Source of the DNA: a virus
Lineage: Duplodnaviria; Caudoviricetes
Reading direction: 5' to 3' (one strand)
Length of the DNA stretch: 39,106 bases
Virus record (IMG/VR): IMGVR_UViG_3300037851_000969
Location: 1-39,106 of that record
Shown one piece after another: positions 22,506 to 39,106 of the stretch. Every line of letters starts with the position of its first letter. Position 1 is the first letter of the stretch. A program made the translations under genes and the position numbers. Below the pieces are notes generated by a model. The model was not told the DNA's origin. It saw nothing but the letters and a program-made list of their open reading frames with translations, and did no database searches.

Positions 22506-22526
22506 GCTTTCCGAGGGGAGGAAACA

Positions 22527-22544
22527 TTTTTTTCAATCTTTTTT
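22527..22544 (+). terminator. Tandem oligo-T terminator after the capsid gene
   Basis: T7-CAATC-T6. Confidence 0.65.
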
Positions 22545-22571
22545 CATATGAGCATTGAGAGGTCCATCCTG

Positions 22572-22859: not shown

Positions 22860-22861
22860 AG

Positions 22862-23269
22862 ATGAGCACGGAAACCACGACACCCACAGCTGGGGAAGCC
22901 CGAGACCTCCTCGGCCTGAACGAGGACGCGCTGAGCGACTCGAAATTCACCACGTTCCTCAGCATCGCCCGCCGCGAAGTGACGAACACGAACGACCACA
23001 ACGCGCTCCTCTACTACGCGTGCTGGAAGATCGCGCAAGGAGCCGCGTGGAGCCACGTCACGAGGATGGGCGAACAAAGCTACAGCGCCCCCGACCCGGA
23101 GATATGGAAGGAAGCATACGTTCGCCGATGCCAAGAACTCAACGTCACCCCGATCAGCACGGGCGCAAGCGTCCGACTCCGCAAGGTGCACAGCGAACGC
23201 GACGACTACCCGGAGAACTGGAGCGAGAGCGAGACCGACACTGACTACGTCGAAGGCGAGGACTGGTGA
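22862..23269 (+). CDS. Head-tail adaptor, putative
   Basis: Synteny; helical N-terminus ARDLLGL...ALLYYACWKI, then RMGEQSYS. Confidence 0.65.
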   Translation: MSTETTTPTAGEARDLLGLNEDALSDSKFTTFLSIARREVTNTNDHNALLYYACWKIAQGAAWSHVTRMGEQSYSAPDPEIWKEAYVRRCQELNVTPISTGASVRLRKVHSERDDYPENWSESETDTDYVEGEDW

Positions 23270-23276
23270 GGATCAA

Positions 23277-23606
23277 GTGGTGTTCATCCCGTACGGGAAA
23301 GGCGAGCACGCGGTGAACGACGCGGGCCAGGAGATCGACATCTACGACGACTCCGGCATCGTCACGACCGTGCGCGCAGTCATCCGCACCGTGGACGAAA
23401 CAAAACAAGCACTCACGAAGACGGGCGTCCGGCCTGCCGTTGATCTCGTCGCGTACGTGGCGAGCAGCGTCACCGTCCAGCGAGGCTGGAAGGTCGTCTG
23501 GAACAGCACGCAATACGAAGTCAGCCAGGTCGAAGACCAGCACAATGACACGCTCCGCCTCGGACTGGTGGAGCAAGCACGCGGCGGGGTGAACTTGACC
23601 ACGTGA
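23277..23606 (+). CDS. Head closure (stopper) protein, putative
   Basis: Synteny; beta-rich VQRGWKVVWNSTQYEVSQVED. Confidence 0.65.
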   Translation: MVFIPYGKGEHAVNDAGQEIDIYDDSGIVTTVRAVIRTVDETKQALTKTGVRPAVDLVAYVASSVTVQRGWKVVWNSTQYEVSQVEDQHNDTLRLGLVEQARGGVNLTT

Positions 23607-23926
23607 TCCGCACGAACGCGAAGACGGTCAGCCTCCAGTGGGAAGCGAAGCGTCGAAGCCTGCTCAAAGCCGCGCAGGCGATCGTGCAGAACGCGACATT
23701 CAAGCTCACTGCCGAAGCCAAGAAAGAAAGCCCGGTCAGGACTGGGTTCCTGCGTAAGAGCATCAACGCGGAGATCGGCCCGTTCCGAGGAAGGGTCCAA
23801 GCGTCCGCCTCGTACGCGGGGTACGTGCACGACGGGACGAGGCACCAGGCGCCGAACCCGTTCCTGAGCCGCGCCCGTGCCACGACAGTGAACTGGTTGC
23901 GCGGGCAGCGCATCAAGATCGAGTAA
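23603..23926 (+). CDS. HK97 gp10-like neck/tail completion protein
   Basis: SPVRTGFLRKSI...YAGYVHDGTRHQAPNPFL. Confidence 0.88.
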   Translation: MIRTNAKTVSLQWEAKRRSLLKAAQAIVQNATFKLTAEAKKESPVRTGFLRKSINAEIGPFRGRVQASASYAGYVHDGTRHQAPNPFLSRARATTVNWLRGQRIKIE

Positions 23927-23949
23927 AACCGTCGAAACCGTTTTAAACC
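23927..23949 (+). promoter_or_regulatory. TATA-like promoter candidate for tail genes
   Basis: GAAACCG-TTTTAAAC about 34 nt upstream of ATG 23981. Confidence 0.4.
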
Positions 23950-23980
23950 ATCCGAGCGCCAGTGGGTGCAGAGGAAGAGA

Positions 23981-24508
23981 ATGGCCCTGTACGAAGTCAC
24001 CGATGCGATCAAGGCGGTCCGGAACGTGATCCAGGATTCGACCGAGAACCCATACACGAGCAGCAGCTCGTACGGGAGCAGCACGAAGTACGTCTTCTTC
24101 TTCAGCAAGAAACCCGCAGGCGCAACACCGTCAGCAACGGAGAGGCGCGCCCTCGTGAGCCGCGAACGAGATCTCCCAATCATCCTGGACTTGACACTCA
24201 TCAACGACCTCCCACTCGTTAACGTGCAGAAACGACACGAACTCACCGTCCTCGTGCGGTGCTTTGTCAGAGCAGACACGTACGCGACGTTCAACGGCGA
24301 GAACAAGGAAGCGCACGAGCTCGCCATCGAGAAGCTCAACGAGGTTAAATACAAGCTCGAGACGGACGCGAGCATCAGAACAACGCTCGCGAATGCAGGA
24401 CTCATCCTGCGACGGATCGGGCTCGGAGGACTGCGCCCAGTCGAGACTGATGGCCAGGATTTCGGCTACGCGTTCGAGCTCACGCTCTGGCGCGCCAGCA
24501 GAACGTAG
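23981..24508 (+). CDS. Tail terminator protein, putative
   Basis: Synteny between the gp10-like gene and tail tube; GAGG RBS. Confidence 0.6.
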   Translation: MALYEVTDAIKAVRNVIQDSTENPYTSSSSYGSSTKYVFFFSKKPAGATPSATERRALVSRERDLPIILDLTLINDLPLVNVQKRHELTVLVRCFVRADTYATFNGENKEAHELAIEKLNEVKYKLETDASIRTTLANAGLILRRIGLGGLRPVETDGQDFGYAFELTLWRASRT

Positions 24509-24546
24509 AACGGGTCAACGAGAGCGACAAGCTGAGGTGAACAAGA

Positions 24547-25068
24547 ATGGCGGATCGAACGGTCGTCCAGGAAGCGATCCTGGCGGAAGAAACGATTTTC
24601 AAGCTGCGACGGAACGGGCAGACCGACTACAGCATCCTCACGGATGTGATCGACGAGACGGTCAGCTTCACCCCGGAAGGCGGCGAGACAAAGAGCTACA
24701 AGGCGATCAGCGGGAAGAGCATCGACATCCCAACGAAGATCTCGATGTTCACCACCCAATTCGCAATGTGGATGCACACGACGGACATCGAAGTCCTGAA
24801 AGGCGCTTTCGGCAACCCGACCATCACCGGCACGGGCCCCTACACGCACACGTTCAACCCGGAGACGATTAGCCAACAGATGGACGTGTACATCGAAGGG
24901 CTGCGCTACGGAAACACGGCGCAGAAAGTGACGATCACAGGAAGCGCCTCGAGCATCAAGTTCGACAGCCTCGACATCGAGAAGGAAGGCCTGATGAAGT
25001 TCCGATGCACGATCAAGATCCCGTCGCAGAACTTCGACCTCGCAGTCGTGAACAGCACGAGCCTGTGA
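24547..25068 (+). CDS. Major tail tube protein, putative
   Basis: GAGGTGA RBS; beta-rich, GTGPYTHTF; precedes chaperone and tape measure. Confidence 0.7.
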   Translation: MADRTVVQEAILAEETIFKLRRNGQTDYSILTDVIDETVSFTPEGGETKSYKAISGKSIDIPTKISMFTTQFAMWMHTTDIEVLKGAFGNPTITGTGPYTHTFNPETISQQMDVYIEGLRYGNTAQKVTITGSASSIKFDSLDIEKEGLMKFRCTIKIPSQNFDLAVVNSTSL

Positions 25069-25083
25069 GCCTGGTGACTGACG

Positions 25084-25302
25084 ATGCGACCGGGTCCTGA
25101 AGAATTCGTAAAGCTCAGCATCGACGGCGTCAAGCTGCGAGACGCGGAACGCTTCGACGAGCTCGCCCGCCGGATCTTCCCTGACGCTCAGAACCCGCGC
25201 AGAAACCTTTTTTATAACTGTTTATGGCTCGCCAGGGCCATTCGAGAACTATCTGCACCGCCAGTGCACGGAGATGATAATGATGAAACCAGCACCGAAT
25301 AA
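25084..25302 (+). CDS. Small putative DNA-binding (RHH-like) protein
   Basis: KLSIDGV...AERFDELARR; GGTGA RBS. Confidence 0.45.
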   Translation: MRPGPEEFVKLSIDGVKLRDAERFDELARRIFPDAQNPRRNLFYNCLWLARAIRELSAPPVHGDDNDETSTE

Positions 25303-25897
25303 GAAGCTCGAGAAGGCGGACCTCATCCACCTTCGCAGCGGGCCGGACCCGAGAATCCTGCAGCCAGTTCCTTTCAGCATCAGCATCTACCCGGCACTCC
25401 TGGACGAGCAAATCAGTCTTCTCCGTCTCGAACTCGAAAAAGTGCCGGAGGAAGACAGGGGGATCGTCCAGCAGAGCCTCAACGTCTTGCAAGAAGAGAA
25501 AGAGAACAGCCCTGTCTTCGAAGCGTTCTTTAGACCGATCAAGCTGGGCGAATGGAGTCGCTACCGGTCGGAGAAGCTGAAGACGTGGGAGGTCGTCCAG
25601 CGCCACGTCACAACGAGCAACGGCGAGCCATATTTCAGTCCCGACGAAGCCGAGAACGTGAGGAACCCGGTCTTTGTGAACGCGGTCTACGACCACCTGC
25701 TCGAAGCGAGCGGCCTCACGGGGGCTGAGATAAAAAATTACAGTCTCCTCTACCAGGCCACGATGATCGAGCTCGAAAGAAGGCGGCGATCAAGGCAGCT
25801 AAAGACCGGGAACGAGGAGTCCAACGAATCACGAGAAGCTTCACCGCCTTCCTCGTCAGAGAATGCGGCTTCAAGCCCTGGGAGGTCCCAGAATTGA
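25280..25897 (+). CDS. Tail assembly chaperone (gpG-like)
   Basis: Between tube and tape measure; contains slippery A AAA AAT at 25732-25738. Confidence 0.75.
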   Translation: MMKPAPNKKLEKADLIHLRSGPDPRILQPVPFSISIYPALLDEQISLLRLELEKVPEEDRGIVQQSLNVLQEEKENSPVFEAFFRPIKLGEWSRYRSEKLKTWEVVQRHVTTSNGEPYFSPDEAENVRNPVFVNAVYDHLLEASGLTGAEIKNYSLLYQATMIELERRRRSRQLKTGNEESNESREASPPSSSENAASSPGRSQN

Positions 25898-25965
25898 CGT
25901 ATCTCGAAGTGCACGAGCTCTTCAACGATTACGAACGAATGCACACGCCACGACAGGAGGAATGA
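25280..25965 (+). CDS. Tail assembly chaperone, -1 frameshift product (gpGT-like)
   Basis: The -1 frame from 25738 is open to TGA 25963-25965: LQSPLPGHDD...FLVRECGFKPWEVPELTYLEVHELF...; ends 6 nt before the tape measure ATG. Confidence 0.8.
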
Positions 25966-25971
25966 ACACCG

Positions 25972-27927
25972 ATGCCCCTCGACCCGCTCGTCCTTGAGCT
26001 CCTCGTGAAAGACGGCGCGAGCGCGAGCCTTGAACGCGTCCGGCGAGAAACGGAACGCGTGGATGACGCGGCGCGTCGAGCGGACGCTGGCGGATTGCGC
26101 GGTCTCGGAGCAAGCCTCGTGAAAATCGGCGCGGCCGTCGGCGCAGCCGTCGTCTTGAAACAAGTCGCAGGGTACCTCGTCGAAGCAGGGCAGGCCGCCG
26201 CGAAAGCAGAAACGAGCCTCGCCGCCTTGCAGCGAACCATCGGCGAGACAGCAGACGATCTCGTGCGCAACCTGCGCGTCGCGGCGAGAGGTACCGTTGC
26301 TGATTTCGAGCTCGTCGCCGGGGCGAACCGGGCGCTCGCCCTTGGACTGGACCAGAACAAGCTCGTCGATCTGATGGACGTCGCCGCTGCGCGCAGCAAA
26401 GTGATGGGAATCACGGTGAGCCAGGCGTTCGGCGATATCGTCACTGGCATCGGTCGGCAATCACCGATGATCCTGGACAACCTTGGCATCGTGATAGACG
26501 CGGAAGCCGCGTACAAGGACTACGCATCAACCCTCGGAAAGACTGAAGACAAGCTGACAGGGGTGGAACGCAAAGCCGCTCTCCTCAACCAGGTTCTCGC
26601 GAACAGCCGTGACCTCGTGGATGCGCAGCGCGGCGGCGCGGACTCGGCCGACGAGAGCTTTCAACGTCTCGGCGCAGATATGGAGAACCTGAAGATCGAG
26701 ATCGGACAAGAACTTCTCCCCATCTTTAAAGAGTTCGTCGACACGCTCCTGGAGAACAAGGATGACATCGTCGCTTCGCTCACCGCTATCGGCAAAGCGG
26801 CAAGCCTCACCCTCGGTGCCGGAAGCAACGTGGTCGAAGGATTCCGAGGCATCGGCGCTGGGATTCGCGAGCTCGCCATCGTGGCGAAAGAACGTGAGAA
26901 GGTCCTGAGCGATCGTGGCGCGACGCGCGAACAGCGTCAAGAGATAATGGGGATGAGCAACGCCGAACTCTTGCAGCGCCGCGCGAACGAATTGATGAGC
27001 GAATTCGGCAATCTCACGTTCATCCCGACGGACGAAGCGATCGAGATGCTCGCCGAGAACAATGCGGAGCTCAGCCTGCTCAAAGAACTAACGAAGGACA
27101 TCCGGGAGGAGCACGACTCGTACGCGAGAAGCCTCCACCAGACGGATGATGCGATTAAAGACTACGTGCTCACCCTGGACGAAGCGATCAGCCTACACCA
27201 GCGGGGTGTCATTGATGTTGAGAACCTCGATACGAGCATACAGAACCTTTACAAGCAGTTCACTGGCTTCCCGCAGGACTACCAGCTCAAGTTCACCCTT
27301 GAGGAATTGAAGACGAAGCTCGAAGCCGCGAAAACCCCTGCGGAAGAGCTCGTCGACGCGTTCACCAACTTGCAGAACACGCTCAACGTGGGCGACACAC
27401 GCCTGGACTTGCTTGGCAACATCCTCGAACAAACAAGCCGTACGGGGGAGCGGAACGTCGCGATCGATGAAGGTCTCGCTGCGAGGCTCGGTTTCGGAAG
27501 CAAAGGCGATCTGCAAGACTTCCTCAAAGAGATGGACATCACCAGCGTTGACCAGAAAGGAGAGAAGCTGAACGTTTTCGGCGCGCAGCGCGCGATCGAG
27601 CTCGCGAAAGAAGACGTGAAGCTCCGCCAGGAAGAATTGACGCTCGCGAACGAGATCGGCGAACTCGCCAAGACTGAAGCCGAACAACGCCTCAGCATCG
27701 CGCTCAGCCACGAGAAGAGTGTGACGAGCCTGAAAGACGAGGTGACGGCGACGCAGGAAATGTTCAGCGAGGTCACGACGAACGGGGACAACGTCGTTTT
27801 CATTCTGAAACAAAAGGCTGACGCGAACGAGCGCAGCGCAGACGCCGCCGAGCGCGAAGAACGAGCCTTGCGCGCCATCATCGGCCTGAATGACAAGCTG
27901 AAAGGACGAGGCAGCGGAAAGAGGTAA
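25972..27927 (+). CDS. Tape measure protein
   Basis: 651 aa, Ala/Leu-rich helical, IVTGIGRQSPMILDNLGI motif, position. Confidence 0.9.
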   Translation: MPLDPLVLELLVKDGASASLERVRRETERVDDAARRADAGGLRGLGASLVKIGAAVGAAVVLKQVAGYLVEAGQAAAKAETSLAALQRTIGETADDLVRNLRVAARGTVADFELVAGANRALALGLDQNKLVDLMDVAAARSKVMGITVSQAFGDIVTGIGRQSPMILDNLGIVIDAEAAYKDYASTLGKTEDKLTGVERKAALLNQVLANSRDLVDAQRGGADSADESFQRLGADMENLKIEIGQELLPIFKEFVDTLLENKDDIVASLTAIGKAASLTLGAGSNVVEGFRGIGAGIRELAIVAKEREKVLSDRGATREQRQEIMGMSNAELLQRRANELMSEFGNLTFIPTDEAIEMLAENNAELSLLKELTKDIREEHDSYARSLHQTDDAIKDYVLTLDEAISLHQRGVIDVENLDTSIQNLYKQFTGFPQDYQLKFTLEELKTKLEAAKTPAEELVDAFTNLQNTLNVGDTRLDLLGNILEQTSRTGERNVAIDEGLAARLGFGSKGDLQDFLKEMDITSVDQKGEKLNVFGAQRAIELAKEDVKLRQEELTLANEIGELAKTEAEQRLSIALSHEKSVTSLKDEVTATQEMFSEVTTNGDNVVFILKQKADANERSADAAEREERALRAIIGLNDKLKGRGSGKR

Positions 27928-27934
27928 GAGTGGG

Positions 27935-28351
27935 ATGAGAATTCGCAACCAAGCCAACACGACGACGCTCTTCCAATTCAGCGACGCCGACCAGGTCAAC
28001 ACGGGCACCGGGCACGCAGTCATCTTGAACGAGCAGAGCTTCGCCGAGACGTTCAGCTTCGAGACGCAACTCAAGCCTCGTTACGGGCAGAAAGGCATCG
28101 TGAAACGGCAGGTCGGCGCGATCAACCGGGAATTCCCCCTGCGAATCCTCATCCTCGGGAGCAGCCGGGACACAAAGCTCGCAGAACTACGCAGCGTCCT
28201 CACAACGAACGAGTTCCTCTACTTCGACACGGAAAGTTACCTGACAAGCCTTGACGGCGTGTACGCACCCGTCGGGACTTGGCGACAGAAGAAAGACGAA
28301 TGGGAAAACACGATCACCGTGGACGTGCGCCTCGTCGAGAAGGAGACGTGA
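27935..28351 (+). CDS. Distal tail (Dit)-like protein
   Basis: Immediately after the tape measure; 138-aa beta-rich protein ending VRLVE. Confidence 0.55.
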   Translation: MRIRNQANTTTLFQFSDADQVNTGTGHAVILNEQSFAETFSFETQLKPRYGQKGIVKRQVGAINREFPLRILILGSSRDTKLAELRSVLTTNEFLYFDTESYLTSLDGVYAPVGTWRQKKDEWENTITVDVRLVEKET

Positions 28352-28358
28352 TGCTCTA

Positions 28359-28766
28359 ATGGCTGACGAAGTCAATCTCACCCAGGAAACCCTGAACCTC
28401 GTGATGCAATACGTCAGGGACAACCTCTTCTTGTACCTCGCAACCGGAACGGGAAATAACGCGATCACCCTCACGAGCGAAGATCTCGAAAGCCCCGTCC
28501 AGACCGGCAGCAGCCAGCGCAACATCCCTTCAGCGAGCACGAGCACGATGAACAACTTCGTCCGTTTCAAGTTCCGCCTCACGAGCGCGATGCCGTACGC
28601 CCTCCCGGTGAGCCTGCAAGAATTCGGTTTGCACAAGACGGCGACCGCGACGAGCGACTTGGTCGCGGGCTGGACGCTTCCCGTCGCGAACACGAAAGAC
28701 AACCAGAGCCAATGGGACGTGACAATCAGCGTCCGGGCCGTCGAACTGGAGAGGAGCAGCCTATGA
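28359..28766 (+). CDS. Tail collar/fibre attachment-like protein
   Basis: YLATGTG...T.EDL...LQEFGL...KDN pattern. Confidence 0.6.
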   Translation: MADEVNLTQETLNLVMQYVRDNLFLYLATGTGNNAITLTSEDLESPVQTGSSQRNIPSASTSTMNNFVRFKFRLTSAMPYALPVSLQEFGLHKTATATSDLVAGWTLPVANTKDNQSQWDVTISVRAVELERSSL

Positions 28767-30379
28767 CTGAATACGTCAAGGTGGATTGGATGAGCAAGAA
28801 TGCCTCCTCCTGGGTTGACGTGACGAGCTACGTCGTCGGCACGAACCGCTGCAGCCTCGGCAAAGGCAGCAAGATTCAAAAAGGGGGTGTCATCACGTTC
28901 GACGACACGCTCCAGTACACGATCGAACCGCACGACGCGATCAAGCTGAGCATCTACGACGGGACGACAACCAGGTTCTTCGAAGGGTTCTTCATTGAAC
29001 CCGCTACGGAAGACGACGACTACTCGTGGCGATTCGAGCACTACGAACGACTCCCCAGCATCCGCAAAGCGACGAACGTCTACACTGCCTTGACGGATAT
29101 CGAGATATTCAAAGCCCTCGTGGACGAGTACCTCGTCGAGTTCACGTACGATGATACGAGCATCCCGCCCGAAACGCTGGACGATCGCGATATGCGCTTG
29201 AACGCCGTCCTGATCAGCGACGTGTTTGACGGGATCGCGCAGCGCACTGGTCGGAACTGGTGGGTTGACGACGACAAGAAGATCTGGCTGAAAGAGCTCA
29301 CGTTCACTGCGAGCGGGTACACCATCACTGCGTCGGAGATTCACGGGCGGCCCAGAGTCGTCCAGGACACGAGCAACTGGCGCACGAAGGTCCGGGTCGA
29401 AGGGGAACGGACCGAGACGGCGTACCAGAAAGATTTCAGCGTCGGCGGCGCGACCGGGACGACAAGCTGGACGCTCGACCAGGCATACGCGAGCATCGAA
29501 GTGAAGCAGATCCCGAGCGGGAGCGATGAGGCGGCTGTGGCTCCGAAGAGAGTCATCTTGGAAGGGAGTGATGTGGAGAGTGACGTCGTTGATTTCTACT
29601 GGAACCCGGCGACGAAAGTTCTCACACGAAACACTGCACGCGTCACGCTGAGCGTGAACGACACGATCAGGGTGAAAGGATTCACAGTCAGCCAGGTCGT
29701 CGGGGAAGCGGTGAACCCGACCGCGTACGCGAAGTACGGCCTCATCGAAGGACGCACCGAGGTGAACCGTCTCATCACGAGCGACAGCCAAGCGGAAACG
29801 ATCGCGCAGAGTCTCGCGGACGAGCAGGGAGAACCGGTGAGCATCCCGACCTTCGCGACGGTGTGGGACAGCAGGGTACTGCCGGGAAATAGCATTACGA
29901 TGAATGCTTACGGGATCGCTGGGTCGTACAACGTCGTCGAGCTTCTCATCGAGTGGGCGGGCAACTCGACGCCCGCGTACCACGTGACGCTGAACAACTT
30001 CAACTACACATTCGACAACGAGTTTGACGAGCTCGAACGACGGGTGCGCCAGCTGGAGGATCGCGACCTGGACGCGCAGACGTTCGTCAAGAAGACGTAC
30101 TTCCCATTCGCGAACATCGCTGTTGATCTCTACCGGGTGTACGTGCACGACTACGGCATCACGAACGCGTTCACCCTCGACCAGTCTTACACGGCCCTCG
30201 ACACTGCCGGGGACTACCTTGATGGGAACGATGGAGGGGGCTCCTTGCGAGACGATGGCGTCTTGTACGTGTGGAACCCGAACGACAAGGTCCGTCTCTT
30301 CCTCAACAACGATGAAGACTGGGACACGGGAGGAAGCACCGCGACGCTCAGCACGACGAACTGCACCATCACGTTTTGA
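28763..30379 (+). CDS. Baseplate hub/Tal-like tail protein
   Basis: IAQRTGRNWWVDDDKKIWL, TKVRVEG, AKYGLIE, AETIAQSL, LPGNSI; start ATG 28763 with ATGA overlap. Confidence 0.75.
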   Translation: MTEYVKVDWMSKNASSWVDVTSYVVGTNRCSLGKGSKIQKGGVITFDDTLQYTIEPHDAIKLSIYDGTTTRFFEGFFIEPATEDDDYSWRFEHYERLPSIRKATNVYTALTDIEIFKALVDEYLVEFTYDDTSIPPETLDDRDMRLNAVLISDVFDGIAQRTGRNWWVDDDKKIWLKELTFTASGYTITASEIHGRPRVVQDTSNWRTKVRVEGERTETAYQKDFSVGGATGTTSWTLDQAYASIEVKQIPSGSDEAAVAPKRVILEGSDVESDVVDFYWNPATKVLTRNTARVTLSVNDTIRVKGFTVSQVVGEAVNPTAYAKYGLIEGRTEVNRLITSDSQAETIAQSLADEQGEPVSIPTFATVWDSRVLPGNSITMNAYGIAGSYNVVELLIEWAGNSTPAYHVTLNNFNYTFDNEFDELERRVRQLEDRDLDAQTFVKKTYFPFANIAVDLYRVYVHDYGITNAFTLDQSYTALDTAGDYLDGNDGGGSLRDDGVLYVWNPNDKVRLFLNNDEDWDTGGSTATLSTTNCTITF

Positions 30380-30398: not shown

Positions 30399-30905
30399 AT
30401 GACGAAGATCAGCCTCCGCACATTCACGAACAAGGTGGGCACGAGCTACACGCCTGGCGCCACGACGAAACCGTACGCGGAGGACCTGAACCAGCTCAAG
30501 GACGCCCTGCAGAGCGGCGTGCGGGAAGTCCTGCTCAAGGTGTGGAACGTGACGACGCTCGAGCGCGACGCGTTAAGCGGCACGGCTGGGATGATCGTCT
30601 GGAACACGGATGAAACGGAACTCCAAGTGTACGATGGCAACGCGTGGGGAAGCCTCGCGGGCGGCGGCGGTGGGATCGACAGCCGAACCAGGAAGAACGG
30701 GTCGGACTTCACCGGCTCGACCGGCGGCACCGGTCGGACGTATGTTCACACAAGTGGGATCAGCCTGAAAAACCTTGTGATGGTCAGCGGAAAAACCCTC
30801 GATCCGAACACGGAATACAGTCTCACGACGACGAGCGTTGTGAACGACACGCTCGTCATCACCGGTCCACTATTCGATGAAGAGGTGGTTGTCCTATGGC
30901 AATAA
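30399..30905 (+). CDS. Short tail fibre-like protein
   Basis: TTLERDAL...GMIVWNTDETELQVYDGNAWGSL fibre module; AGGTGA RBS. Confidence 0.65.
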   Translation: MTKISLRTFTNKVGTSYTPGATTKPYAEDLNQLKDALQSGVREVLLKVWNVTTLERDALSGTAGMIVWNTDETELQVYDGNAWGSLAGGGGGIDSRTRKNGSDFTGSTGGTGRTYVHTSGISLKNLVMVSGKTLDPNTEYSLTTTSVVNDTLVITGPLFDEEVVVLWQ

Positions 30906-33427
30906 AAAAAATCCTGGCGATCGTGTTCACCGCGTTACTGCTCCCATTCCTCGCACACGCGGCGGATTTCAATCCGCGCGGCGACATCAACGGGTACGGC
31001 TTGTACAACATCAATGGCATAGTGAACACGACCACGACGAACCTGTGGGCATCAGGCGATGCAGTCTTGAACGGGACACTCACGCAAGACGGGAACGTGA
31101 TCCTCACCACGAACAGCATCCTGATTAACCTCCTCTGGCAAGGCAGCGCGATCGCTGACCTATACCTGGCGAACGCCTCCGTGTGGCACGCGAAGGCCGG
31201 AACGGGCGCTTGCAGCGCCGGGTACGTCGTGATGAACACGACCACTGCTGGCGTGCAATGCGTCCTGGATAAAGACACGACGTACACCGCCACCAACCCG
31301 TACCTCGTCCTCTCAGGGACGGCGTTTTCGTGGAACGAGACGAAAGGCAACGCGACGTACGTGAACGAAGGACAAACAGATAGCATCACGAGCGGGATGG
31401 TCGCGTTCAACTACGCGAATGGAATCACGGCCGGGACGTGCATCCAGGTCAGCGGCACCGCTGGCGAAGCGTGGAGCCCGAACGTGAGCACGAACAATAC
31501 GTGCCTCGACGCGAGCTTCGTCGGCCAAAGCGAATACGCGAACCTCGACACGGACAGCACGAACGATCTCACCACGGGCACGACGTTCGGTGGGGACGTG
31601 AGCGGAACTTACAACGCGATCATCGTAGCGGACAACAGCCACGCCCTGCACTGGGACAACGTCACGAGCAAGCCCGCGAACCTGGATACTGACTCGACTA
31701 ACGACCTCACCACCGCGACGGCCTGGGGGGGCGACCTGGGTGGCACGGGCAGCAGTCCAAGCGTGACGGACAACAGTCACAACCACGGTAACAGCACCAT
31801 CACCGACCTCGACTACGTGAAGCTTCAAACCTACCCGTCAGCGTGTGGTGCGGGCACGGCAATAACGATGCTCGGCGACACGCCAACGTGCACCGCGTTC
31901 CTGCAAAGTGAGACGGGAGATATCAGCGCGGTGAACATCGACACGAGCGGGTACCTCACCGGCGGAGCCGCGAGCGGCTCCGCAACGATCGGCTTCAATG
32001 AGACGAAGCTGAACGCGACGATCGACGCGCGCGATGACAGCCCGACGTATGCGAACAGCACGGGACTCGGACTCTCCACTTTCACGTTCAGTATCCTCAC
32101 CACATACCAGCTCCCGCAAGGCTGCAGCGACGGGTACGTGGCGAAATGGAACACGACGAGTCTATCCTGGTACTGCGCCGTGGACAGCACCGGCGCTGGT
32201 GGGGGGATGACGAGCTGGCTGCTCAGCGCGAACGGCGCCGCGACGATCGACGTGACAGACGGTGAGACGGTCGACTTTGCTTCTGGATCGGGCTTGAACG
32301 TTTCCCGAAGCACGCAGACAATCACGTTCAGCCATAATGACACGAGCACGCAGAGCAGCGTGGACTCGAGCAATGGGAACGTCGTCCAGGACGTCAGTCT
32401 GGATACATACGGACACGTGACGAGCCTGACGAGCTACGACTTGGACAACCGGTATTTCACCGAGACGGAGAGCGACACGAACTTCGTCAGCCGAGGAACG
32501 TGGACGGACCACGACAACTACGCGCCGGACTGCAGCGCCGGAAACTATGTGTACGGTCTTGGCGATACGCTTAGCTGCAGCATCCCGCCTGGCGCGAACA
32601 ACGGTCACACGCACGACTCTGCGAACATCACATCAGGCACCATCGTCAACGCGCGATACAACACGAGCTACCTCCTCACAACGAGCGGGTTCGACGCCGC
32701 GAACCTGACAAGCGGGACCGTACCAGACGCTCGGATCAGCACGACGATCGCGCGCAGCGGCACCTTCCAATGCGGCGGAACAGACCAGCTCTACAACCTC
32801 ACCGTGAACAGCACGGGCGTCTACGGATTGTGCAGCGCACAAGGAAGCGCAGGCGGAAGCAACAGCTTCGTCACGTGGGACGCGCCGAGCGGTACCGACC
32901 CGGTCGCTGACACGACGAGCGACACGATGATTCTGACAGCTTCAGGAATCGTCAGCATTACGGGAGATGAGAGTGCCGACAGTCTTACCATCGGCGCGGT
33001 CGAGGTTGACGGGAGCACGACGAACGAGTTGCAGAATCTCTGGGCGACGATGAGTTCTGATTCTGGGAGCGTTGCTGCGAACTCGCAGACGGACACGTTC
33101 ACCATTGCTGGCGGGACTGACGGCTTGGATACGAGCATCACTGGGGATACGGTGACGTTCGCGGTTGACCCTTCAGAGTTCGCGACTGACGATGTGCCGG
33201 AGAGCAAGATGGATTTTGACACGACTTGTGGTAGCACGAGCAAACTCTATGTGAGTGGCAACGACCTCGCGTGCAACCCTGACGACACGGCCTCGTGGAC
33301 GAACACGACGACAACCGTCACGACGACCCTGGACGTGAACATCACCGGGCACAAGCTCTACCTCGGCAATGGTGGATGCTTGTATCAGAACGCGACGCAC
33401 TGGAGGATGATGGGCACGTGCAGCTAA
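30896..33427 (+). CDS. Secreted Thr/Ser/Asn-rich fibre-like glycoprotein
   Basis: Sec signal MAIKKILAIVFTALLLPFLAHA; more than 20 N-x-S/T sequons by manual count; Cys pairs; internal repeats (GGDVSGT...DNSH). Confidence 0.85.
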   Translation: MAIKKILAIVFTALLLPFLAHAADFNPRGDINGYGLYNINGIVNTTTTNLWASGDAVLNGTLTQDGNVILTTNSILINLLWQGSAIADLYLANASVWHAKAGTGACSAGYVVMNTTTAGVQCVLDKDTTYTATNPYLVLSGTAFSWNETKGNATYVNEGQTDSITSGMVAFNYANGITAGTCIQVSGTAGEAWSPNVSTNNTCLDASFVGQSEYANLDTDSTNDLTTGTTFGGDVSGTYNAIIVADNSHALHWDNVTSKPANLDTDSTNDLTTATAWGGDLGGTGSSPSVTDNSHNHGNSTITDLDYVKLQTYPSACGAGTAITMLGDTPTCTAFLQSETGDISAVNIDTSGYLTGGAASGSATIGFNETKLNATIDARDDSPTYANSTGLGLSTFTFSILTTYQLPQGCSDGYVAKWNTTSLSWYCAVDSTGAGGGMTSWLLSANGAATIDVTDGETVDFASGSGLNVSRSTQTITFSHNDTSTQSSVDSSNGNVVQDVSLDTYGHVTSLTSYDLDNRYFTETESDTNFVSRGTWTDHDNYAPDCSAGNYVYGLGDTLSCSIPPGANNGHTHDSANITSGTIVNARYNTSYLLTTSGFDAANLTSGTVPDARISTTIARSGTFQCGGTDQLYNLTVNSTGVYGLCSAQGSAGGSNSFVTWDAPSGTDPVADTTSDTMILTASGIVSITGDESADSLTIGAVEVDGSTTNELQNLWATMSSDSGSVAANSQTDTFTIAGGTDGLDTSITGDTVTFAVDPSEFATDDVPESKMDFDTTCGSTSKLYVSGNDLACNPDDTASWTNTTTTVTTTLDVNITGHKLYLGNGGCLYQNATHWRMMGTCS
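31538..31714 (+). repeat. Intragenic 138-nt-period repeat (ANLDTDSTNDLTT x2)
   Basis: Copies at 31538-31576 and 31676-31714: identical peptide, 7 of 13 codons differ. Confidence 0.8.
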
Positions 33428-36400
33428 AGACCATCTTGGCAATCGCGGCAGTCCTCCTCCTTGTAGGTTGCGGCCACGAAACAACCCCCTCAGATGATCT
33501 GATCTCGGGCGGGTCAATCCTCGCCGGAGAAGAACAAGAACTGAGCGCATACGGTGGTGGGGGGCTTATCGGGGTGATCAACGAGACGGAATTCGAGAGC
33601 GTCCAGATTACGAGCCTCACCGGCCTCGAAGCGCGATTCAACTGGACCGTGAACCGTGTGAACGCGACGCACTGGCGCGTCAGCGCGGTTATCCCTTCAA
33701 CCTTGCGCAGCACGCTCGAGACGCAACGAAGCAAGACGTGCGGGAACGCTGGCTGGACGACGATCAAGAACAGCCTCAATCTTTCAGGAAAGACCGCGAC
33801 GCAGCTGTGCAACGACATTAAGAACTTTGAGAACTTCCCGACAGCAAGCCCGGACGGCAGGGTCTCGTTCGAGAATGTGAAGGCAAATCTCTCCACTGGG
33901 CAGATCGAAGCGGAGATCAGCTTCCCGGAAGGCATCGTTGACGGGTTGCGAGCGAGTCTCGGATTCGGCACGGTGAACTTGACCGCGACGACGTACACCA
34001 CCTATTTCCTCAAAACACGCAGGGGCGTGTGCAGAACGAGCAACAACTACATTCACGTCCTCTATCCTGGCACGCAGACTGCAATCTACTACGCGCGAAG
34101 CACTGATGGTGGAGCATCGTTCACGGTCAATACGACCGCGTTCACCGGTGCGGGTGCGGGAAACAAGTTCTCGCAGAGCATTGATTGTGAAGGCAGCACG
34201 GTTGTCGCGTTCTTTCATAATGGGAGCACGAACGTGCAGGTCTGGAAGAGCACAAATAATGGTGATTCGTGGAGCAACGTGCACACGAGAGCAGAAACCG
34301 TCCTCACCGGATACAACGCTCAGATTCGCGTCAAAGGCAACGAGATCTACGCGTATTGGTGGGGCGCCACTGAGGAGAATTTCTTGAACAGTAGCGACGG
34401 GGGGACGAGTTGGACGTACACGAACCTGACGAATCTCCTCCCGAGCCTTTCAGACACGAGCGGCGGCGCGGACATCTTCATCGACTGGAAAGGCAACACT
34501 GACCCGACGGACAACCGCATCATCATCGGGTATCGCCGACCAAGCACGAACGCGTACCAATGGGCGGTCAGTCTGAACGGCGGATCAACGTGGACGAACA
34601 GCACGACTAGTGCTTGCCTTTCGCAGACAGGCGGACACTTGGTCGGCGTTCAAAACAACGGGCGCCTCTGGCAGACAAGCGGGCAAGACACGGGGACTTC
34701 TTGCTGGGTATATGCTCATTACAGCGATGACAACGCTTCGACGTGGACGACGAGCTATGTGCACCAGAGTGTCGGGCAGAACGCGTTCACCACGGCCGCG
34801 ATGGATGACGACACCGGATACCCGCACGTCATCTACGAGACGGGAATCCTCAACACGAACAAAGACATCCGCTACGCGGTGAAGAACAGCACAAGCAACC
34901 CGTCAATCCTGTGGAACCTGACGAACGACGCGCTCGCCGACACGACGCCGAGCGCGGTGCACCAGAAGACGAACGGCACGATTGACTTCGTCTGGCTGCG
35001 AGGAACAAACAGCCTCTACCACAGCTACATTGATTTGACGAACAAAAGCAGCACCATCACAGGCGTGCCATCCCCAAGCACGACGATCCCCGCGTGGGGA
35101 TCAACGGTCGAGTGCCGCGCAGTCTACACCGGAAAAGACTCCGGTGGGAATGTGAGCTTCATCTGGTACAAGAATGGTGCCGTCGAGCCTTATCACAACA
35201 GCAGCGTCAGCGTAAGCGGCCAGATCGCGGTCGCGACGAGCGGAAGCGTCACGGCGAACACGAGCAATCTCGGCTCGTGGATTTGCAGCGCTCGCAGCTA
35301 CAACGGCAGCGTGTACAGCGGGTACGTGAACAGCACGCCAGTCACGATCAGCGATTCTGTCCCTCCGCAGTACGCGCTCGGCGCGATCAGTGGGAACATC
35401 ACCTACGGGGCGAACGTGTCTCTCTTGAGCAACTGGACGGACAACGTGAACCTGAGCACCGCAAGGCTCTTCTGGAATGCGAGAGGCTACTGGGAACAAC
35501 TCACGAGTTGCACGCTGACCGGGACGAGCAGCAGCTGCAACGTGTCGAAGAACGTGACGGGGTATGCCGGGCAAGTGTGCTGGTTCGCGTGGGCAAACGA
35601 CACGACGAACAACATCAACGCGATCGGATTATCAACTCCCGCTTGCTTCAACATCACGACACCATCCTACACGGTTACGATGACTGCGCCCACGACCGCG
35701 AGCCCGGCAAGCGTGACCGGCGGCGAGTCCTTCACGGCGAACTTCACCGTGAGCAACGAGCTCGGCAGCGTGACCGGCGGGCTTGGATTGTGGAACGCGA
35801 CGATTGGCACTGGCCAGCTCAGCTTTGAAGACTGGGACCGACGATATAAAGGCCAGTTTCTTTCGAGGACGAGCATCCTCAACACTTCAACTTCATTATT
35901 CGGCGGACCGGCCTTTTCAAGAATGGTTTGGTACGATCGTCACACGAACAGGTGGTACACGTTCTACATTGACACCGCCTACGACATACGCGCGCTCTGG
36001 AGCGAGAACGGGTACACTATCGGTCAAGACCAGGTAGTGATTGCGGGGACTTGGACTGATGATGACTATGACGTTTGGCTCACGGATCACGGGACGTACA
36101 GCAGGTTGCACGTCGTCTACACGGACAGCACGCAAGAATATCTCGATTATATCGCGTGCAACATAACCACGAGCACGAGCCTCGCTTGCAGCGCGAGCCA
36201 GAGAATCTACCTGGCGAGCTCACAAGGCAACAGCGCAACTGATGATGTAGCGCACCCCGCAGTCGCAGCGGACAGCCAGAATTGCCTCCTCGTTGCGTGG
36301 GACTTCGAGGACGACAGCGAAGCGACCGCTGACGAGCACGAAGTGGTCTTTATAAAAGAGAACAGCACGGACTGCGATAATGGCGGCCCAGACAACGGCT

Positions 36401-37515
36401 GCGGAGATGGCGTCTTCAACCGGACGTGCTACGACGCGGGATTTCCGATTTACAGCGTCCAGACGGACGTACTCGGATATAATGCTGAAATGCTCACCGG
36501 AATCGTTCCGTACGGCGACTTAGACGCGCAAGTTTTCTGGAGCGACACCGACAGCAGCACGGCGGTCGAGTTCGCCACCATCTTCTATAATGGCACAACA
36601 AGAACCTTCCCATCCGCGCAGGTCGCATTGAATGCTGATGTTGAGACCGATCTGACGAATCAGATCTGGCTGGAAGGCGCGGTTATCGTAACTGGGAACA
36701 CAACGATTGGGTTCGCAGTTGTCGATGCAGCCACGACGATCACCGCGTACATCCTTGATGGGAAGACTGACACGACGAGCCGAAGCGTCTCGACAGGCAT
36801 CACCATCCCCACTACGAGCACAAATCATAAAGATCCCTTCGCCGGAGTCGTTGATACCCGATCAAACGGGGGAGATGATGTGTACCTCTTCGCGTTGAAC
36901 GGGACGACCGGCACTACCAAACTCGTGGTTGTGAACAGCACGAACGCGGGGACGACGTGGGGAACCGTCCAGACGCTCAGCACTGACGTGACAGGAGCAC
37001 CGGACGGTGCTCCTGTCACGGGGTACCTCAGCGCGGGATTCAGCAATGAAACGTGCGATATAGTTGTGAGATACGAGACGAATAGCTTGCTCTACTCAAC
37101 GAGAAACGGCTGGACGTGGACGTTCAACACTGGCAGCTGCAACACCGCGAAGAACCTAACCTACTCGGGCGGTGCCTGGCATTACAATTTCACCGTGCCG
37201 GGAGGAATGACTGGATTGCAGAACTTCAACATCCTCCTCAACGACGTCAATGTCATCTTCGCGAACGCGACGAAGACTGAAACGAGCGCGTTCAACTACG
37301 GCGGCGCCGGGGACCCGTGCGCGTATACGAGCGGCACGTGGAACCTGCCGTGTGGGTGCAACCTGACCAGTCCGCAAGGCATCAGTGGCAACGCGATCGT
37401 GATCACCGGGAGCGGCGTGATCAGGGTAGAAGCCGCGATCACGGGCGTGACGAGCATCACGAGCCCGAACACGTGCGACCTGCTCGGAACAAGCAGCGGG
37501 TACATCGGCACTTGA
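33418..37515 (+). CDS. Large lipoprotein with Asp-box (BNR) beta-propeller and Ig-like domains
   Basis: GTG 33418 after GGAGG; MQLKTILAIAAVLLLVG-C lipobox; Asp-boxes STDGGASF, STNNGDSW, SSDGGTSW, SLNGGSTW, SDDNASTW, STNAGTTW; about 40 N-x-S/T sequons; 1365 aa. Confidence 0.85.
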   Translation: MQLKTILAIAAVLLLVGCGHETTPSDDLISGGSILAGEEQELSAYGGGGLIGVINETEFESVQITSLTGLEARFNWTVNRVNATHWRVSAVIPSTLRSTLETQRSKTCGNAGWTTIKNSLNLSGKTATQLCNDIKNFENFPTASPDGRVSFENVKANLSTGQIEAEISFPEGIVDGLRASLGFGTVNLTATTYTTYFLKTRRGVCRTSNNYIHVLYPGTQTAIYYARSTDGGASFTVNTTAFTGAGAGNKFSQSIDCEGSTVVAFFHNGSTNVQVWKSTNNGDSWSNVHTRAETVLTGYNAQIRVKGNEIYAYWWGATEENFLNSSDGGTSWTYTNLTNLLPSLSDTSGGADIFIDWKGNTDPTDNRIIIGYRRPSTNAYQWAVSLNGGSTWTNSTTSACLSQTGGHLVGVQNNGRLWQTSGQDTGTSCWVYAHYSDDNASTWTTSYVHQSVGQNAFTTAAMDDDTGYPHVIYETGILNTNKDIRYAVKNSTSNPSILWNLTNDALADTTPSAVHQKTNGTIDFVWLRGTNSLYHSYIDLTNKSSTITGVPSPSTTIPAWGSTVECRAVYTGKDSGGNVSFIWYKNGAVEPYHNSSVSVSGQIAVATSGSVTANTSNLGSWICSARSYNGSVYSGYVNSTPVTISDSVPPQYALGAISGNITYGANVSLLSNWTDNVNLSTARLFWNARGYWEQLTSCTLTGTSSSCNVSKNVTGYAGQVCWFAWANDTTNNINAIGLSTPACFNITTPSYTVTMTAPTTASPASVTGGESFTANFTVSNELGSVTGGLGLWNATIGTGQLSFEDWDRRYKGQFLSRTSILNTSTSLFGGPAFSRMVWYDRHTNRWYTFYIDTAYDIRALWSENGYTIGQDQVVIAGTWTDDDYDVWLTDHGTYSRLHVVYTDSTQEYLDYIACNITTSTSLACSASQRIYLASSQGNSATDDVAHPAVAADSQNCLLVAWDFEDDSEATADEHEVVFIKENSTDCDNGGPDNGCGDGVFNRTCYDAGFPIYSVQTDVLGYNAEMLTGIVPYGDLDAQVFWSDTDSSTAVEFATIFYNGTTRTFPSAQVALNADVETDLTNQIWLEGAVIVTGNTTIGFAVVDAATTITAYILDGKTDTTSRSVSTGITIPTTSTNHKDPFAGVVDTRSNGGDDVYLFALNGTTGTTKLVVVNSTNAGTTWGTVQTLSTDVTGAPDGAPVTGYLSAGFSNETCDIVVRYETNSLLYSTRNGWTWTFNTGSCNTAKNLTYSGGAWHYNFTVPGGMTGLQNFNILLNDVNVIFANATKTETSAFNYGGAGDPCAYTSGTWNLPCGCNLTSPQGISGNAIVITGSGVIRVEAAITGVTSITSPNTCDLLGTSSGYIGT

Positions 37516-37771: not shown

Positions 37772-38116
37772 ATGGTCGACACTGCAAACCTGGCACTCAC
37801 TGACCTGTACGCGGGGAAGGCGTTCAAGCAAACCTTCCAAGTGAAAGAGAACGGCGTCGCCGTCAACATCACCACGTACGCGGACGACTTCACCTTCAAA
37901 TGCTGGAAAGCAAGCAGCCCCGGCACGATCGCACTCACAAAGTCGTGCCCTATCAGCGACGCGGCGAACGGAAAGTTCACCCTCACCCTCGCCACGACAG
38001 ACACTGATGATCTCGAACCCGGCGTGCCCTACGAATACCAGGTCGCGGGGACGGATACGGCCGGGGACAATTATGTCTGGACGACAGGCAGCTTCGTCCC
38101 GCTCAAAGCGCACTGA
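37772..38116 (+). CDS. BppU-like Ig-fold baseplate/adaptor protein
   Basis: AVNITTY...DAANGKFTLTLATTDT...YEYQV. Confidence 0.65.
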   Translation: MVDTANLALTDLYAGKAFKQTFQVKENGVAVNITTYADDFTFKCWKASSPGTIALTKSCPISDAANGKFTLTLATTDTDDLEPGVPYEYQVAGTDTAGDNYVWTTGSFVPLKAH

Positions 38117-38415: not shown

Positions 38416-38438
38416 AATGGAGGATTGATGCACGATGG
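38416..38438 (+). repeat. 23-nt dispersed repeat, copy 2
   Basis: 22/23 identical to 17454-17476, again spanning RBS and ATG. Confidence 0.8.
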
Positions 38439-39106
38439 TCGGAGTGTTTCCATTCACGTACGGACAAAGCCCGGTGTACAGCGCGGACTTGAACGTGGCG
38501 ATGTACAAGTACCCGTTCGGGAACGGAAGCGACGGGTCTTCAACGATCAGCACGAACACGGACTGGGGCGTGGTTGTGAAGAACCTGACAAGCCTCACCG
38601 TGAACACGGGCGTCACCCTCACGATCGGGAGCGGGAGCGTCATCTGCGTGAGCGGCACCCTCACCTTGACCGGAACCGGGGCGATCGTGGTGAGCACGCA
38701 AGGCAGCGGCGGCACAGCCGGGTCAGCAGGTGCGAACGGTGGCAGCGGAGCCGCTGGCGGCGCTGATGGTGGCCGCGCGTGGATCTTCGCACAGACGATG
38801 GCTGGAAGCGGAAGCATCAGCGCGAACGGGGCGAATGGGAGCAACGGCGGCACTGCAAGCAGCGCTTCCGGCAACACGACAGGCGGTACTGGCGGCTCCG
38901 GCGCTGGCGGTGGGTTGTATAACTCGTTCACCTACGGCGGAAGCAATGGGGGCGGTGGGGGCGATCGCGGACAGAATAACGGGGCGGGCGGCACGGCCGG
39001 AACTGCGGGCGCCGGGGAAACTGACTGCGTCAAGCTCCTCAGAGCAGCTGACCTGTTCAGCGTGAACAAAGGCACTGGCAGCGGGGGCGGTGGCGGGGGT
39101 GGAGCT
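38435..39106 (+). CDS. Glycine-rich tail/virion protein, N-terminal part (3'-truncated; absent from the ORF track)
   Basis: MVGVFPFTYGQSPVYSADLN...FGNGSDGSSTIS...LTVNTGVTLT...CVSGTLTL...; open to the window end in poly-Gly. Confidence 0.85.
   Translation, partial: MVGVFPFTYGQSPVYSADLNVAMYKYPFGNGSDGSSTISTNTDWGVVVKNLTSLTVNTGVTLTIGSGSVICVSGTLTLTGTGAIVVSTQGSGGTAGSAGANGGSGAAGGADGGRAWIFAQTMAGSGSISANGANGSNGGTASSASGNTTGGTGGSGAGGGLYNSFTYGGSNGGGGGDRGQNNGAGGTAGTAGAGETDCVKLLRAADLFSVNKGTGSGGGGGGGA

What the first reader, a model, noticed from the sequence alone, without database searches (positions are those of the whole stretch)
30896..37515. Tail operon encodes two very large exported, sequon-rich surface proteins (Sec-type fibre and lipoprotein)
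Seen: an 843-aa protein with a classical signal peptide (MAIKKILAIVFTALLLPFLAHA) and a 1365-aa protein with a lipobox (LLVG-C), together about 17% of the genome, overlapping their upstream neighbours in the tail module. By manual count they carry more than 20 and about 40 N-x-S/T sequons plus paired Cys, while capsid, portal and tape measure show no such enrichment. Established: tailed virions assemble in the cytoplasm, so fibres normally lack export signals, and archaeal N-glycosylation by AglB occurs outside the membrane. Inference: the virus builds a glycosylated appendage on the host surface (receptor masking, or changing how a symbiotic host attaches to its partner), or its receptor-binding parts are exported, glycosylated and picked up at egress. 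This is my best candidate for an undescribed system.
Basis: partly seen in the sequence, partly recalled or inferred. Interest (0 to 1): 0.85.

Follow-up and report, generated by a model that had tools for sequence, protein, structure and literature searches.

The report
Exported glycoprotein fibres in tailed virus
A complete tailed virus, likely of a tiny symbiotic (DPANN) archaeon, spends 17% of its genome on a predicted three-stranded fibre and a predicted sugar-binding adhesin that both start with export-type leaders and carry excess sugar-attachment motifs, so the fibre is likely finished outside the cell membrane and likely joins the particle only at release, which is not how tailed viruses are normally built.

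Summary
Observation confirmed, with corrections. The window is a circular tailed-virus genome of about 39.1 kb, with no sign of host DNA. ORF A (843 aa) has a cleavable-type leader, 24 sequons (16 expected) and eight Cys pairs, and is predicted to be a homotrimeric fibre (ipSAE 0.70, best control 0.00). ORF B (1365 aa) has a lipobox-type leader, 44 sequons (24 expected) and two predicted beta-propellers resembling lectins and glycan-cleaving enzymes. Leaders and the Asn+2 Ser/Thr excess hold across both families. The lipobox and the tail-module position do not: related cassettes mostly sit among head and neck genes. Directly after the leader, A starts with a motif (FxPxGDIN) shared with other tailed viruses; of 15 distinct viral versions, 13 have a leader and 2 start with it at Met1 in the same gene slot. 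That favours a virion fibre given an export step. Against: DPANN chromosomes hold the same modules as surface proteins, and host, export, glycosylation and virion presence are unshown. This scan noted the phenomenon before on other DNA (e1-3436670, e1-5720563, e1-9712869, e1-9760575). My nine literature searches found no description of this assembly route.

The parts
30896..33427 (+). ORF A, 843 aa: fibre protein with leader; 24 sequons; 8 Cys pairs
   Evidence: relatives
30896..30961 (+). Predicted Sec leader of A (aa 1-22; two Lys, hydrophobic core, A-H-A before the cut)
   Evidence: sequence; hydropathy; leaderless relatives start at the equivalent residue
30962..31030 (+). Conserved mature N-terminal motif (FxPxGDIN..Y.I.N), inferred docking or trimer-start element
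30962..31855 (+). aa 23-320, predicted intertwined homotrimer
   Evidence: ipSAE 0.70, best control 0.00, pLDDT at least 81, runs agree in at least 90% of contacts
33017..33376 (+). aa 708-827, segment like T4-type gp9 fibre connector
   Evidence: phrog_677 E=1.6e-7; 57-64% identity over 45-50 aa to cyanophage gp9
33418..37515 (+). ORF B, 1365 aa: large adhesin-like protein with leader; 44 sequons
33418..33471 (+). Leader of B ending L-V-G-C (Cys18), lipobox-type; lipobox not conserved in relatives
33949..35055 (+). Predicted beta-propeller 1 (about aa 178-546; four Asp-boxes), closed by a strand from aa 45-56, with an inserted domain at about aa 60-170
35860..37146 (+). Predicted beta-propeller 2 (about aa 815-1243); also found in other viruses and in a cellular type IV pilus operon
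30399..30905 (+). Leaderless 168-aa tail-fibre-like gene overlapping A's start
   Evidence: phrog_30742 E=3e-4, phrog_1325
37772..38116 (+). Leaderless LtfC-like fibre collar gene
   Evidence: PF23926 E=0.003, below cut-off; phrog_1084 E=7e-11, phrog_3304
38435..39106 (+). Leaderless Gly-rich fibre-like gene, running off the window end; Gly-rich coding continues at the window start
16049..30379 (+). Context: terminase, portal-MuF, protease, cement, HK97 capsid, neck, tape measure, then unassigned tail genes

Best explanation
ORF A is a predicted trimeric virion fibre that is likely exported by the host Sec system, likely cut after residue 22, likely N-glycosylated and disulfide-bonded outside the membrane, and would dock on the finished particle at release through its conserved new N-terminus; ORF B is a likely membrane-tethered, likely glycosylated glycan-binding adhesin that would stay on the infected cell's surface or hold the fibre there. 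Shown: gene anatomy, coupling inside the virion operon, leaders and Asn+2 excess across the families, leader-bearing and leaderless versions with the same first residues in the same gene slot. Predicted: trimer of A, two propellers in B. Inferred: DPANN host, export, glycosylation, docking, and B's role.
For: (1) Trimer model passes: 0.70 vs best control 0.00; mark reached by 20 of 30 solved homo-pairs and 1 of 23 single chains, counts only roughly valid for three copies and my own alignment; pLDDT at least 81; at least 90% contact agreement. A shares pieces with annotated phage fibres. (2) Leaders: 13 of 17 relatives of A and 88 of 142 of B pass my rule, fragments included. (3) Asn+2 Ser/Thr excess: 17 viral leader fibres 2.13x with the search motif masked, 16 partner proteins 2.43x, 11 cellular exported proteins 1.95x, against 1.19x for 39 core virion proteins of the same viruses and 1.08x for 33 leaderless Ser/Thr/Asn-rich proteins of other phage contigs. 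(4) A DNA motif scan gave 17 IMG/VR contigs; 16 have head or tail genes, and the motif protein has a hydrophobic leader in 15 of 15 where its start is present. In 10 of 10 tailed contigs where the next gene is visible it too has a hydrophobic N-terminal segment, the A-then-B layout. (5) Scan for FTPxGDINL: 21 loci, 2 off-target, 19 true, giving 15 distinct N-termini: 13 behind a leader, 2 at Met1. The full-length leaderless one (784 aa, three contigs) is coupled by TAATG to the same head-tail connector gene, has 2 Cys, and lacks the sequons that all 13 leader versions have within 30 residues of the motif (0 of 2 vs 13 of 13; read). Leaderless forms nest among leader-bearing ones, next to one with 81% connector identity. 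A leaderless fibre cannot easily be a host surface protein, so the slot likely encodes a virion part. (6) The motif was not found in 301 genomes of the phylum of a Nanoarchaeota MAG and in 1 of 251 of another archaeal phylum, there inside a protein; control 3 of 3 virus records. (7) AglB/STT3 in 5 of 5 archaeal genomes that hold related modules; Sec and aglB are reported in Nanobdella (bioRxiv 10.1101/2023.10.27.564410, passages).
Against: No proteomics, no RNA, no SignalP. A's repeats occur in leader-bearing chromosomal genes of DPANN MAGs and a Patescibacteria MAG, and propeller 2 sits in a cellular pilus operon, so both module types serve on cell surfaces. Contigs without recognised tailed-virus genes share the cassette (L029, L067). 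The full-length leaderless fibre is a single virus and still has a sequon excess (27 vs 17, z 2.6-3.2; 1.56x, partly from repeats); the second leaderless form is only about 85 aa and may be a remnant. The motif resembles a general fibre repeat and may only start the trimer. A's own sequon excess is modest (1.45x; Asp+2 is 1.38x). No docking partner was identified, and the window has its own leaderless fibre candidates (30399, 37772, 38435). The trimer pass may come from likeness to solved fibres.
Confidence: 0.5

Rival explanations
1. Both proteins stay on the infected cell as a virus-built adhesive coat (fibre on a tethered base) that keeps the symbiont attached to its partner or to new hosts, or masks receptors; neither is in the virion.
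For: Same modules in chromosomal exported glycoproteins and in a type IV pilus operon. B-type partners mostly have uncleaved-looking N-terminal anchors. PMC11310336 reads LamG genes of DPANN viruses this way (passages). The cassette moves between head, neck and tail slots.
Against: Leaderless versions with the same first residues in the same slot; the N-terminal motif was seen at the mature start only in tailed viruses; tight coupling within the virion operon in a virus with no integrase found.
Confidence: 0.3
2. Particles leave wrapped in host membrane or carrying membrane patches, with B as an anchored spike and A bound to it.
For: B-type proteins are anchored; the same pair occurs on contigs with pilin-like hydrophobic proteins and no tailed-virus hits (L029, L067); no holin or endolysin family hit in the window.
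Against: Complete HK97 head and long-tail gene set; archaeal head-tailed viruses are described as lipid-free and lytic (PMC10384203, passages).
Confidence: 0.08
3. The leaders and sequons are leftovers of captured host surface genes; the proteins work in the cytoplasm as ordinary fibres from an internal start.
For: A leaderless full-length version exists and keeps a sequon excess; close chromosomal pieces at 60-72% identity.
Against: Leaders kept in 13 of 15 diverged versions with an A/S-x-A/S-type cut site right before the motif; sequon excess 2.1-2.4x in viral members; GC3 matches the virus.
Confidence: 0.07
4. The exported pair weakens the glycosylated S-layer for exit, with B's propellers acting as glycan-cleaving enzymes.
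For: Propellers match GH145/PL25-type enzymes and sialidases as well as lectins (Z 26-30); secreted viral proteins are proposed to aid exit in sheathed archaea (PMC11576556, section 11).
Against: Fold matches are tied with non-enzymes (PLL, BP39L lectins); catalytic residues not tested; does not explain a fibre.
Confidence: 0.05

Closest known systems
Concanavalin/LamG and glycosyltransferase 'cell-surface modification' genes of CPR/DPANN viruses (PMC11310336; passages only)
   Same: Adhesin-type genes in DPANN viruses; LamG proteins sit in the same cassettes of related viruses here (7 of 32 proteins scanned).
   Different: A and B have no LamG hit. The paper's main text has no 'signal peptide' and the passages seen do not place the genes in virion operons or propose virion fibres; its Supplementary Data 9 was not seen.
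Trimeric phage fibres and connectors (T4-type gp9; Celeribacter phage P12053L tail fibre; T5 L-shaped fibre with LtfC collar)
   Same: Predicted intertwined trimer; shared short modules; collar-like gene downstream.
   Different: Those are made in the cytoplasm without leaders (established knowledge); leaderless phage proteins of like composition show no Asn+2 excess.
Secreted sheath-like proteins of tailed viruses of sheathed archaea (PMC11576556; abstract and section 11)
   Same: Tailed archaeal viruses encoding signal-peptide proteins drawn from host surface families.
   Different: 159-288 aa amyloid-like proteins proposed to disrupt the sheath; not fibres or propellers.
HFTV1 capsid turrets and tail fibres (bioRxiv 10.1101/2024.12.09.627619; passages)
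   Same: Trimeric glycan-binding appendages on an archaeal siphovirus for first attachment.
   Different: No signal peptide mentioned in the main text; no sequence link tested.
Glycosylated spikes of enveloped archaeal viruses (HFPV-1, HRPV-1; PMC10384203, passages)
   Same: Viral surface proteins glycosylated by the host machinery.
   Different: Those viruses bud through the membrane; this one has an HK97 head and tail. The same paper reports glycosylation of some HRTV-DL1 structural proteins with no effect of aglB loss.
Exported phage-fibre-like adhesins of cells (DPANN chromosomal genes found here; Bdellovibrio mosaic adhesive trimers, recalled, no call)
   Same: Leader plus mosaic fibre modules on a cell surface.
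   Different: Cellular genes; they lack the viral mature N-terminal motif at their start.

Membership tests
Caudoviricetes, long non-contractile tail type | Terminase, portal, HK97 capsid, neck and tape-measure genes; no sheath | tested here: met
   no sheath family hit among 40 ORFs scanned
Trimeric phage fibre (A) | Intertwined homotrimer | tested here: met
   Predicted for aa 23-320 only; a model, not a measurement
Trimeric phage fibre (A) | Modules shared with annotated fibres | tested here: met
   short pieces only; no solved-structure sequence hit
Trimeric phage fibre (A) | Made in the cytoplasm, no export leader | tested here: not met
   Leader present and conserved
Trimeric phage fibre (A) | Present on the virion | not testable with these tools
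   needs proteomics or cryo-EM
Sec/SPI substrate (A) | Basic n-region, hydrophobic core, small residues at -3/-1 | tested here: met
   By hydropathy and sequence, no SignalP; leaderless relatives start at the predicted cut
Lipoprotein (B) | Lipobox Cys after a hydrophobic core | tested here: met
   L-V-G-C18 from the GTG start
Lipoprotein (B) | Lipobox conserved in relatives | tested here: not met
   3 of 142 pattern hits, none clearly canonical
AglB N-glycoprotein | N-x-S/T excess specific to +2 in an exported protein | tested here: met
   strong for B, modest for A
AglB N-glycoprotein | Host has AglB; glycans attached | tested here: inconclusive
   Host unknown; STT3 in 5 of 5 archaeal genomes with related modules; glycans not testable
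Asp-box beta-propeller lectin or glycosidase (B) | Propeller fold with Asp-boxes | tested here: met
   Z 27-30, rmsd 3.1-3.7 over 333-357 residues; five Asp-boxes
Sialidase / GH145 / PL25 enzyme (B) | Catalytic residues | not tested
   Model coordinates not inspected; no Pfam hit
LamG 'cell-surface modification' genes of DPANN viruses | LamG/concanavalin domain | tested here: not met
   No Pfam hit in A or B; present in cassettes of related viruses
DPANN virus | Host link by spacer or provirus | tested here: inconclusive
   Only indirect: names of A relatives, GAGGTGA ribosome sites, other cassette viruses binned in 3 of 401 MAGs as whole viral contigs

The most novel reading that the evidence does not exclude
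A large group of tailed viruses of DPANN archaea assembles its particle in two compartments: head and tail in the cytoplasm, fibres exported, cut, glycosylated and disulfide-bonded by the host, staged on the cell surface by a tethered viral adhesin, and clipped on at release through an N-terminal peptide freed by signal peptidase. The export step can be switched off by losing the leader.
Probability: 0.42. Interest if true: 0.9.

Novelty: new variant of a known kind. Interest (0 to 1): 0.72.

Why it matters
Tailed virions are taken to be wholly cytoplasmic products. If these fibres are exported and then joined to the particle, tailed viruses can use host secretion, N-glycosylation and disulfide chemistry to make virion parts, and the particle would wear its host's sugars, which bears on how viruses find ultra-small symbionts attached to other cells. 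If instead the proteins stay on the cell, viruses are remodelling DPANN attachment with very large adhesins. Either way the near-identical virus pair with and without the leader (L101 vs L104) and the conserved N-terminal motif make the question directly testable.

Tried and rejected
Close relatives of this virus were not found: terminase, ORF A and a capsid alignment gave no loci in IMG/VR, and the capsid had no match in the phage collection, so synteny in near kin is untested. The capsid alignment hit 1 of 301 MAGs, a viral contig at 24% identity with no cassette in the 19 kb held. The word-index search for B returned only itself; the full HMMER search of aa 1-1161 gave 143 hits including itself. 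ESM Atlas: A's model pTM 0.17, feature hits under 0.9, all viral clusters, leads only; nothing for B. Propeller 2 was not confirmed in the GTDB pattern scan; its core was not found in 301 genomes of one phylum (five hits to other parts) and was in 1 of 251 of another. No solved-structure sequence match for A or the motif. No RNA holder listed. The first repeat-motif scan returned 25 loci, mostly bacterial-type phages; 6 were read gene by gene and 21 supplied the leaderless control. Two of five handles were not held. Regions of B outside the propellers were barely tested by the fold searches. Rejected: misassembly or host DNA; composition as the sole cause of sequons; lipobox and tail position as family traits. 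Literature searches found no paper describing exported fibres joined to tailed virions; the library lacks most subscription papers, and no supplements were read.
Full report
The genome. The window is the whole record. Family scans show a one-strand virion operon: terminase 16049, portal fused to MuF 17741, protease 19872, cement 21177, HK97-type capsid 21618, neck genes, tape measure 25972, then tail genes. No integrase, holin or endolysin family was hit among the ORFs scanned. A contig of freshwater run X1, possibly the source of this DNA, covers 24000-39104 with no difference and continues into 1-9208; a second contig covers 9181-11649, closing a circle of about 39.1 kb. GC and GC3 of the two genes match the virion genes.

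The observation. ORF A (30896-33427, 843 aa) and ORF B (33418-37515, 1365 aa) each overlap the gene before by 10 nt and make up 16.9% of the window. B's GTG start has the better ribosome site. Both begin with a short basic stretch and a hydrophobic core; 0 of 58 chosen core virion proteins do (other viruses' tape measures were left out, and two were flagged). A has 24 sequons against 16.2 expected (p=0.015) and B 44 against 24.0 (p=0.0005); portal and tape measure have no excess, the capsid a small one. The excess is confined to Asn+2. A's 16 Cys form 8 close pairs.

ORF A. Its 17 database relatives are mosaic; 13 pass my leader rule and 11 have a sequon z above 2. The two named by taxon come from Aenigmarchaeota and Nanoarchaeota MAGs. 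Its central repeat lies in chromosomal genes of Nanoarchaeota, Altiarchaeota, Woesearchaeota and Patescibacteria MAGs (5 of 14 loci read), one in a run of five leader-bearing, sequon-rich genes. Short pieces match cyanophage gp9 and a Celeribacter phage tail fibre. Three copies of aa 23-320 fold as an intertwined trimer: ipSAE 0.70 against a best control of 0.00, pLDDT at least 81, runs agreeing in at least 90% of contacts; the mark was reached by 20 of 30 solved homo-pairs and 1 of 23 single chains, counts that hold only roughly here, and likeness to solved fibres may help the score.

ORF B. HMMER found 142 relatives; 88 pass the leader rule, 84 have sequon z above 2, and the lipobox is not conserved. 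Two AlphaFold models (pLDDT 78 and 82) give two beta-propellers with beta-rich domains between them. Best matches are CylK, a Bacteroides glycoside hydrolase, a rhamnose-glucuronate lyase and PLL/BP39L lectins (Z 26-30, rmsd 3.0-3.7 over 313-357 residues), with sialidases also listed. Binding or cleaving glycans is therefore a lead, not a result. Propeller 2 occurs in the head module of a complete tailed virus (L026), in a cellular archaeal type IV pilus operon behind a pilin-like N-terminus (L027), and on two contigs of leader-rich genes (L028, L029).

The cassette in other viruses. A DNA scan for a motif shared by A's relatives returned 17 distinct IMG/VR contigs; 16 have head or tail genes and one (L067) had no hit for four proteins tested. 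The motif protein has a hydrophobic leader in 15 of 15 cases where its start is held, and in 10 of 10 tailed contigs where the next gene is visible that gene also has a hydrophobic N-terminal segment, mostly without a clear cut site. The pair usually lies between portal and protease or between capsid and neck genes; tail-tip positions as in the window occur too (L072, L085). Asn+2 excess is 2.13x in 17 fibres with the search motif masked, 2.43x in 16 partners, 1.19x in 39 core proteins of the same viruses and 1.08x in 33 leaderless phage proteins of like composition. LamG domains are frequent in these cassettes.

The N-terminal motif. Right after the predicted cut, A reads like 11 of 14 assessable tailed-virus fibres from that scan. 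A scan for the motif itself gave 21 loci, 2 off-target; the 19 others hold 15 distinct N-termini, 13 behind a leader and 2 starting Met-Ser-Asp-motif. One leaderless form is a 784-aa gene seen in three contigs, coupled by TAATG to the head-tail connector gene; the other is about 85 aa. All 13 leader versions have a sequon within 30 residues of the motif start; neither leaderless one does. In a tree of 12 connector proteins the leaderless viruses form a 100/100 clade with a leader-bearing virus, inside mostly leader-bearing relatives. Another relative has leaderless appendage genes in the same slots (L093). The motif was not found in 301 genomes of the phylum of a Nanoarchaeota MAG and in 1 of 251 of another phylum, there internal; the same search found 3 of 3 virus records. 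Against: the long leaderless fibre keeps a 1.56x Asn+2 excess, partly from repeats.

Host. Not shown. Indirect signs point to DPANN archaea: names of relatives, GAGGTGA ribosome sites, and viruses with 62-69% capsid identity to cassette viruses binned as whole contigs in 3 of 401 MAGs, one with the leader cassette. Five of five archaeal genomes with related modules have STT3/AglB.

Mechanism. I commit to a two-compartment route (0.5): A is exported, cut, glycosylated and disulfide-bonded, trimerises, and docks on the particle at release; B is tethered by lipid or leader and binds glycans on the cell surface or holds A there. The main support is that the same slot and the same first residues work with or without a leader. 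That finished particles can take up fibres afterwards is established for P22 tailspikes and T4 long fibres (recalled). The chief rival (0.3) is a virus-built coat on the host, supported by chromosomal and pilus-operon relatives. Export, glycosylation, docking and B's role are all inferred.

What is known. PMC11310336 (passages) reports LamG and glycosyltransferase genes in DPANN viruses as aids to cell adhesion; PMC12647753 (passages) reports glycosyltransferases; PMC11576556 (abstract and section 11) reports secreted sheath-like proteins of tailed archaeal viruses; PMC10384203 (passages) covers glycosylated spikes of enveloped viruses and some glycosylated HRTV-DL1 proteins; bioRxiv 10.1101/2024.12.09.627619 (passages) shows HFTV1 turrets; bioRxiv 10.1101/2023.10.27.564410 (passages) describes Sec, aglB and lectin-like surface proteins in Nanobdella; PMC11705971 (passages) names two Woesearchaeales proviruses with no mention of signal peptides. 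Nine searches found no account of exported fibres joined to tailed virions; supplements were not read and may list such genes. This scan's earlier notes describe the same phenomenon on other DNA; they are leads, not independent support.

Verdict. Real, viral and family-wide; a new variant of phage fibre and adhesin genes, with a fair chance of a new assembly route. Interest 0.72.

Noticed in passing
L029 (whole), L067:2373-16241, L028: Contigs packed with leader-bearing and pilin-like hydrophobic proteins and no tailed-virus hits in the few proteins scanned; they share propeller 2 or the fibre motif and may be enveloped or filamentous viruses of DPANN archaea.
   Followed up: partly
L027:4890-11980: Cellular archaeal type IV pilus operon (KaiC-type ATPase, two T2SSF genes, pilins) in which one pilin-like protein of 743 aa carries ORF B's propeller 2 (37% identity), a candidate pilus-tip adhesin.
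   Followed up: partly
L001/L002:9245-13328; L004:2679-8908: Bacterial-type phages (Mu-like portal in L001) with several leader-bearing genes right after the capsid gene, including fibre-like ones, but with no N-x-S/T excess: the leader pattern is not limited to archaeal viruses.
   Followed up: partly
window 459-1271: Papain-family C1 peptidase directly after the last fibre-like gene across the circle's join, where lysis genes often lie; no leader seen; a candidate for S-layer cutting or processing.
   Followed up: no
window 38435-39106 and 1-446: Leaderless Gly-rich fibre-like gene spans the ends of the window; the second assembly has about 19 more bases at the join.
   Followed up: partly
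window 8796-10358 and 11529-12791: Two ParB-N domain genes, the second matching a phage methyltransferase family in its N-terminal part; an ASCH-domain gene at 15128-15604 lies before the terminase.
   Followed up: no
window 17741-19822: Portal fused to a MuF (minor head) domain in one 693-aa ORF.
   Followed up: no
L060:12263-12649, L070:13919-14314: ORF B's small C-terminal domain (about aa 1300-1360) occurs as a separate 130-aa leader-bearing gene in two other tailed viruses.
   Followed up: partly
L026:7499-10858: Propeller 2 is split by an insertion of about 360 residues in this virus, which also has a third 1343-aa leader protein after its tape-measure region (L072:2381-6412).
   Followed up: no
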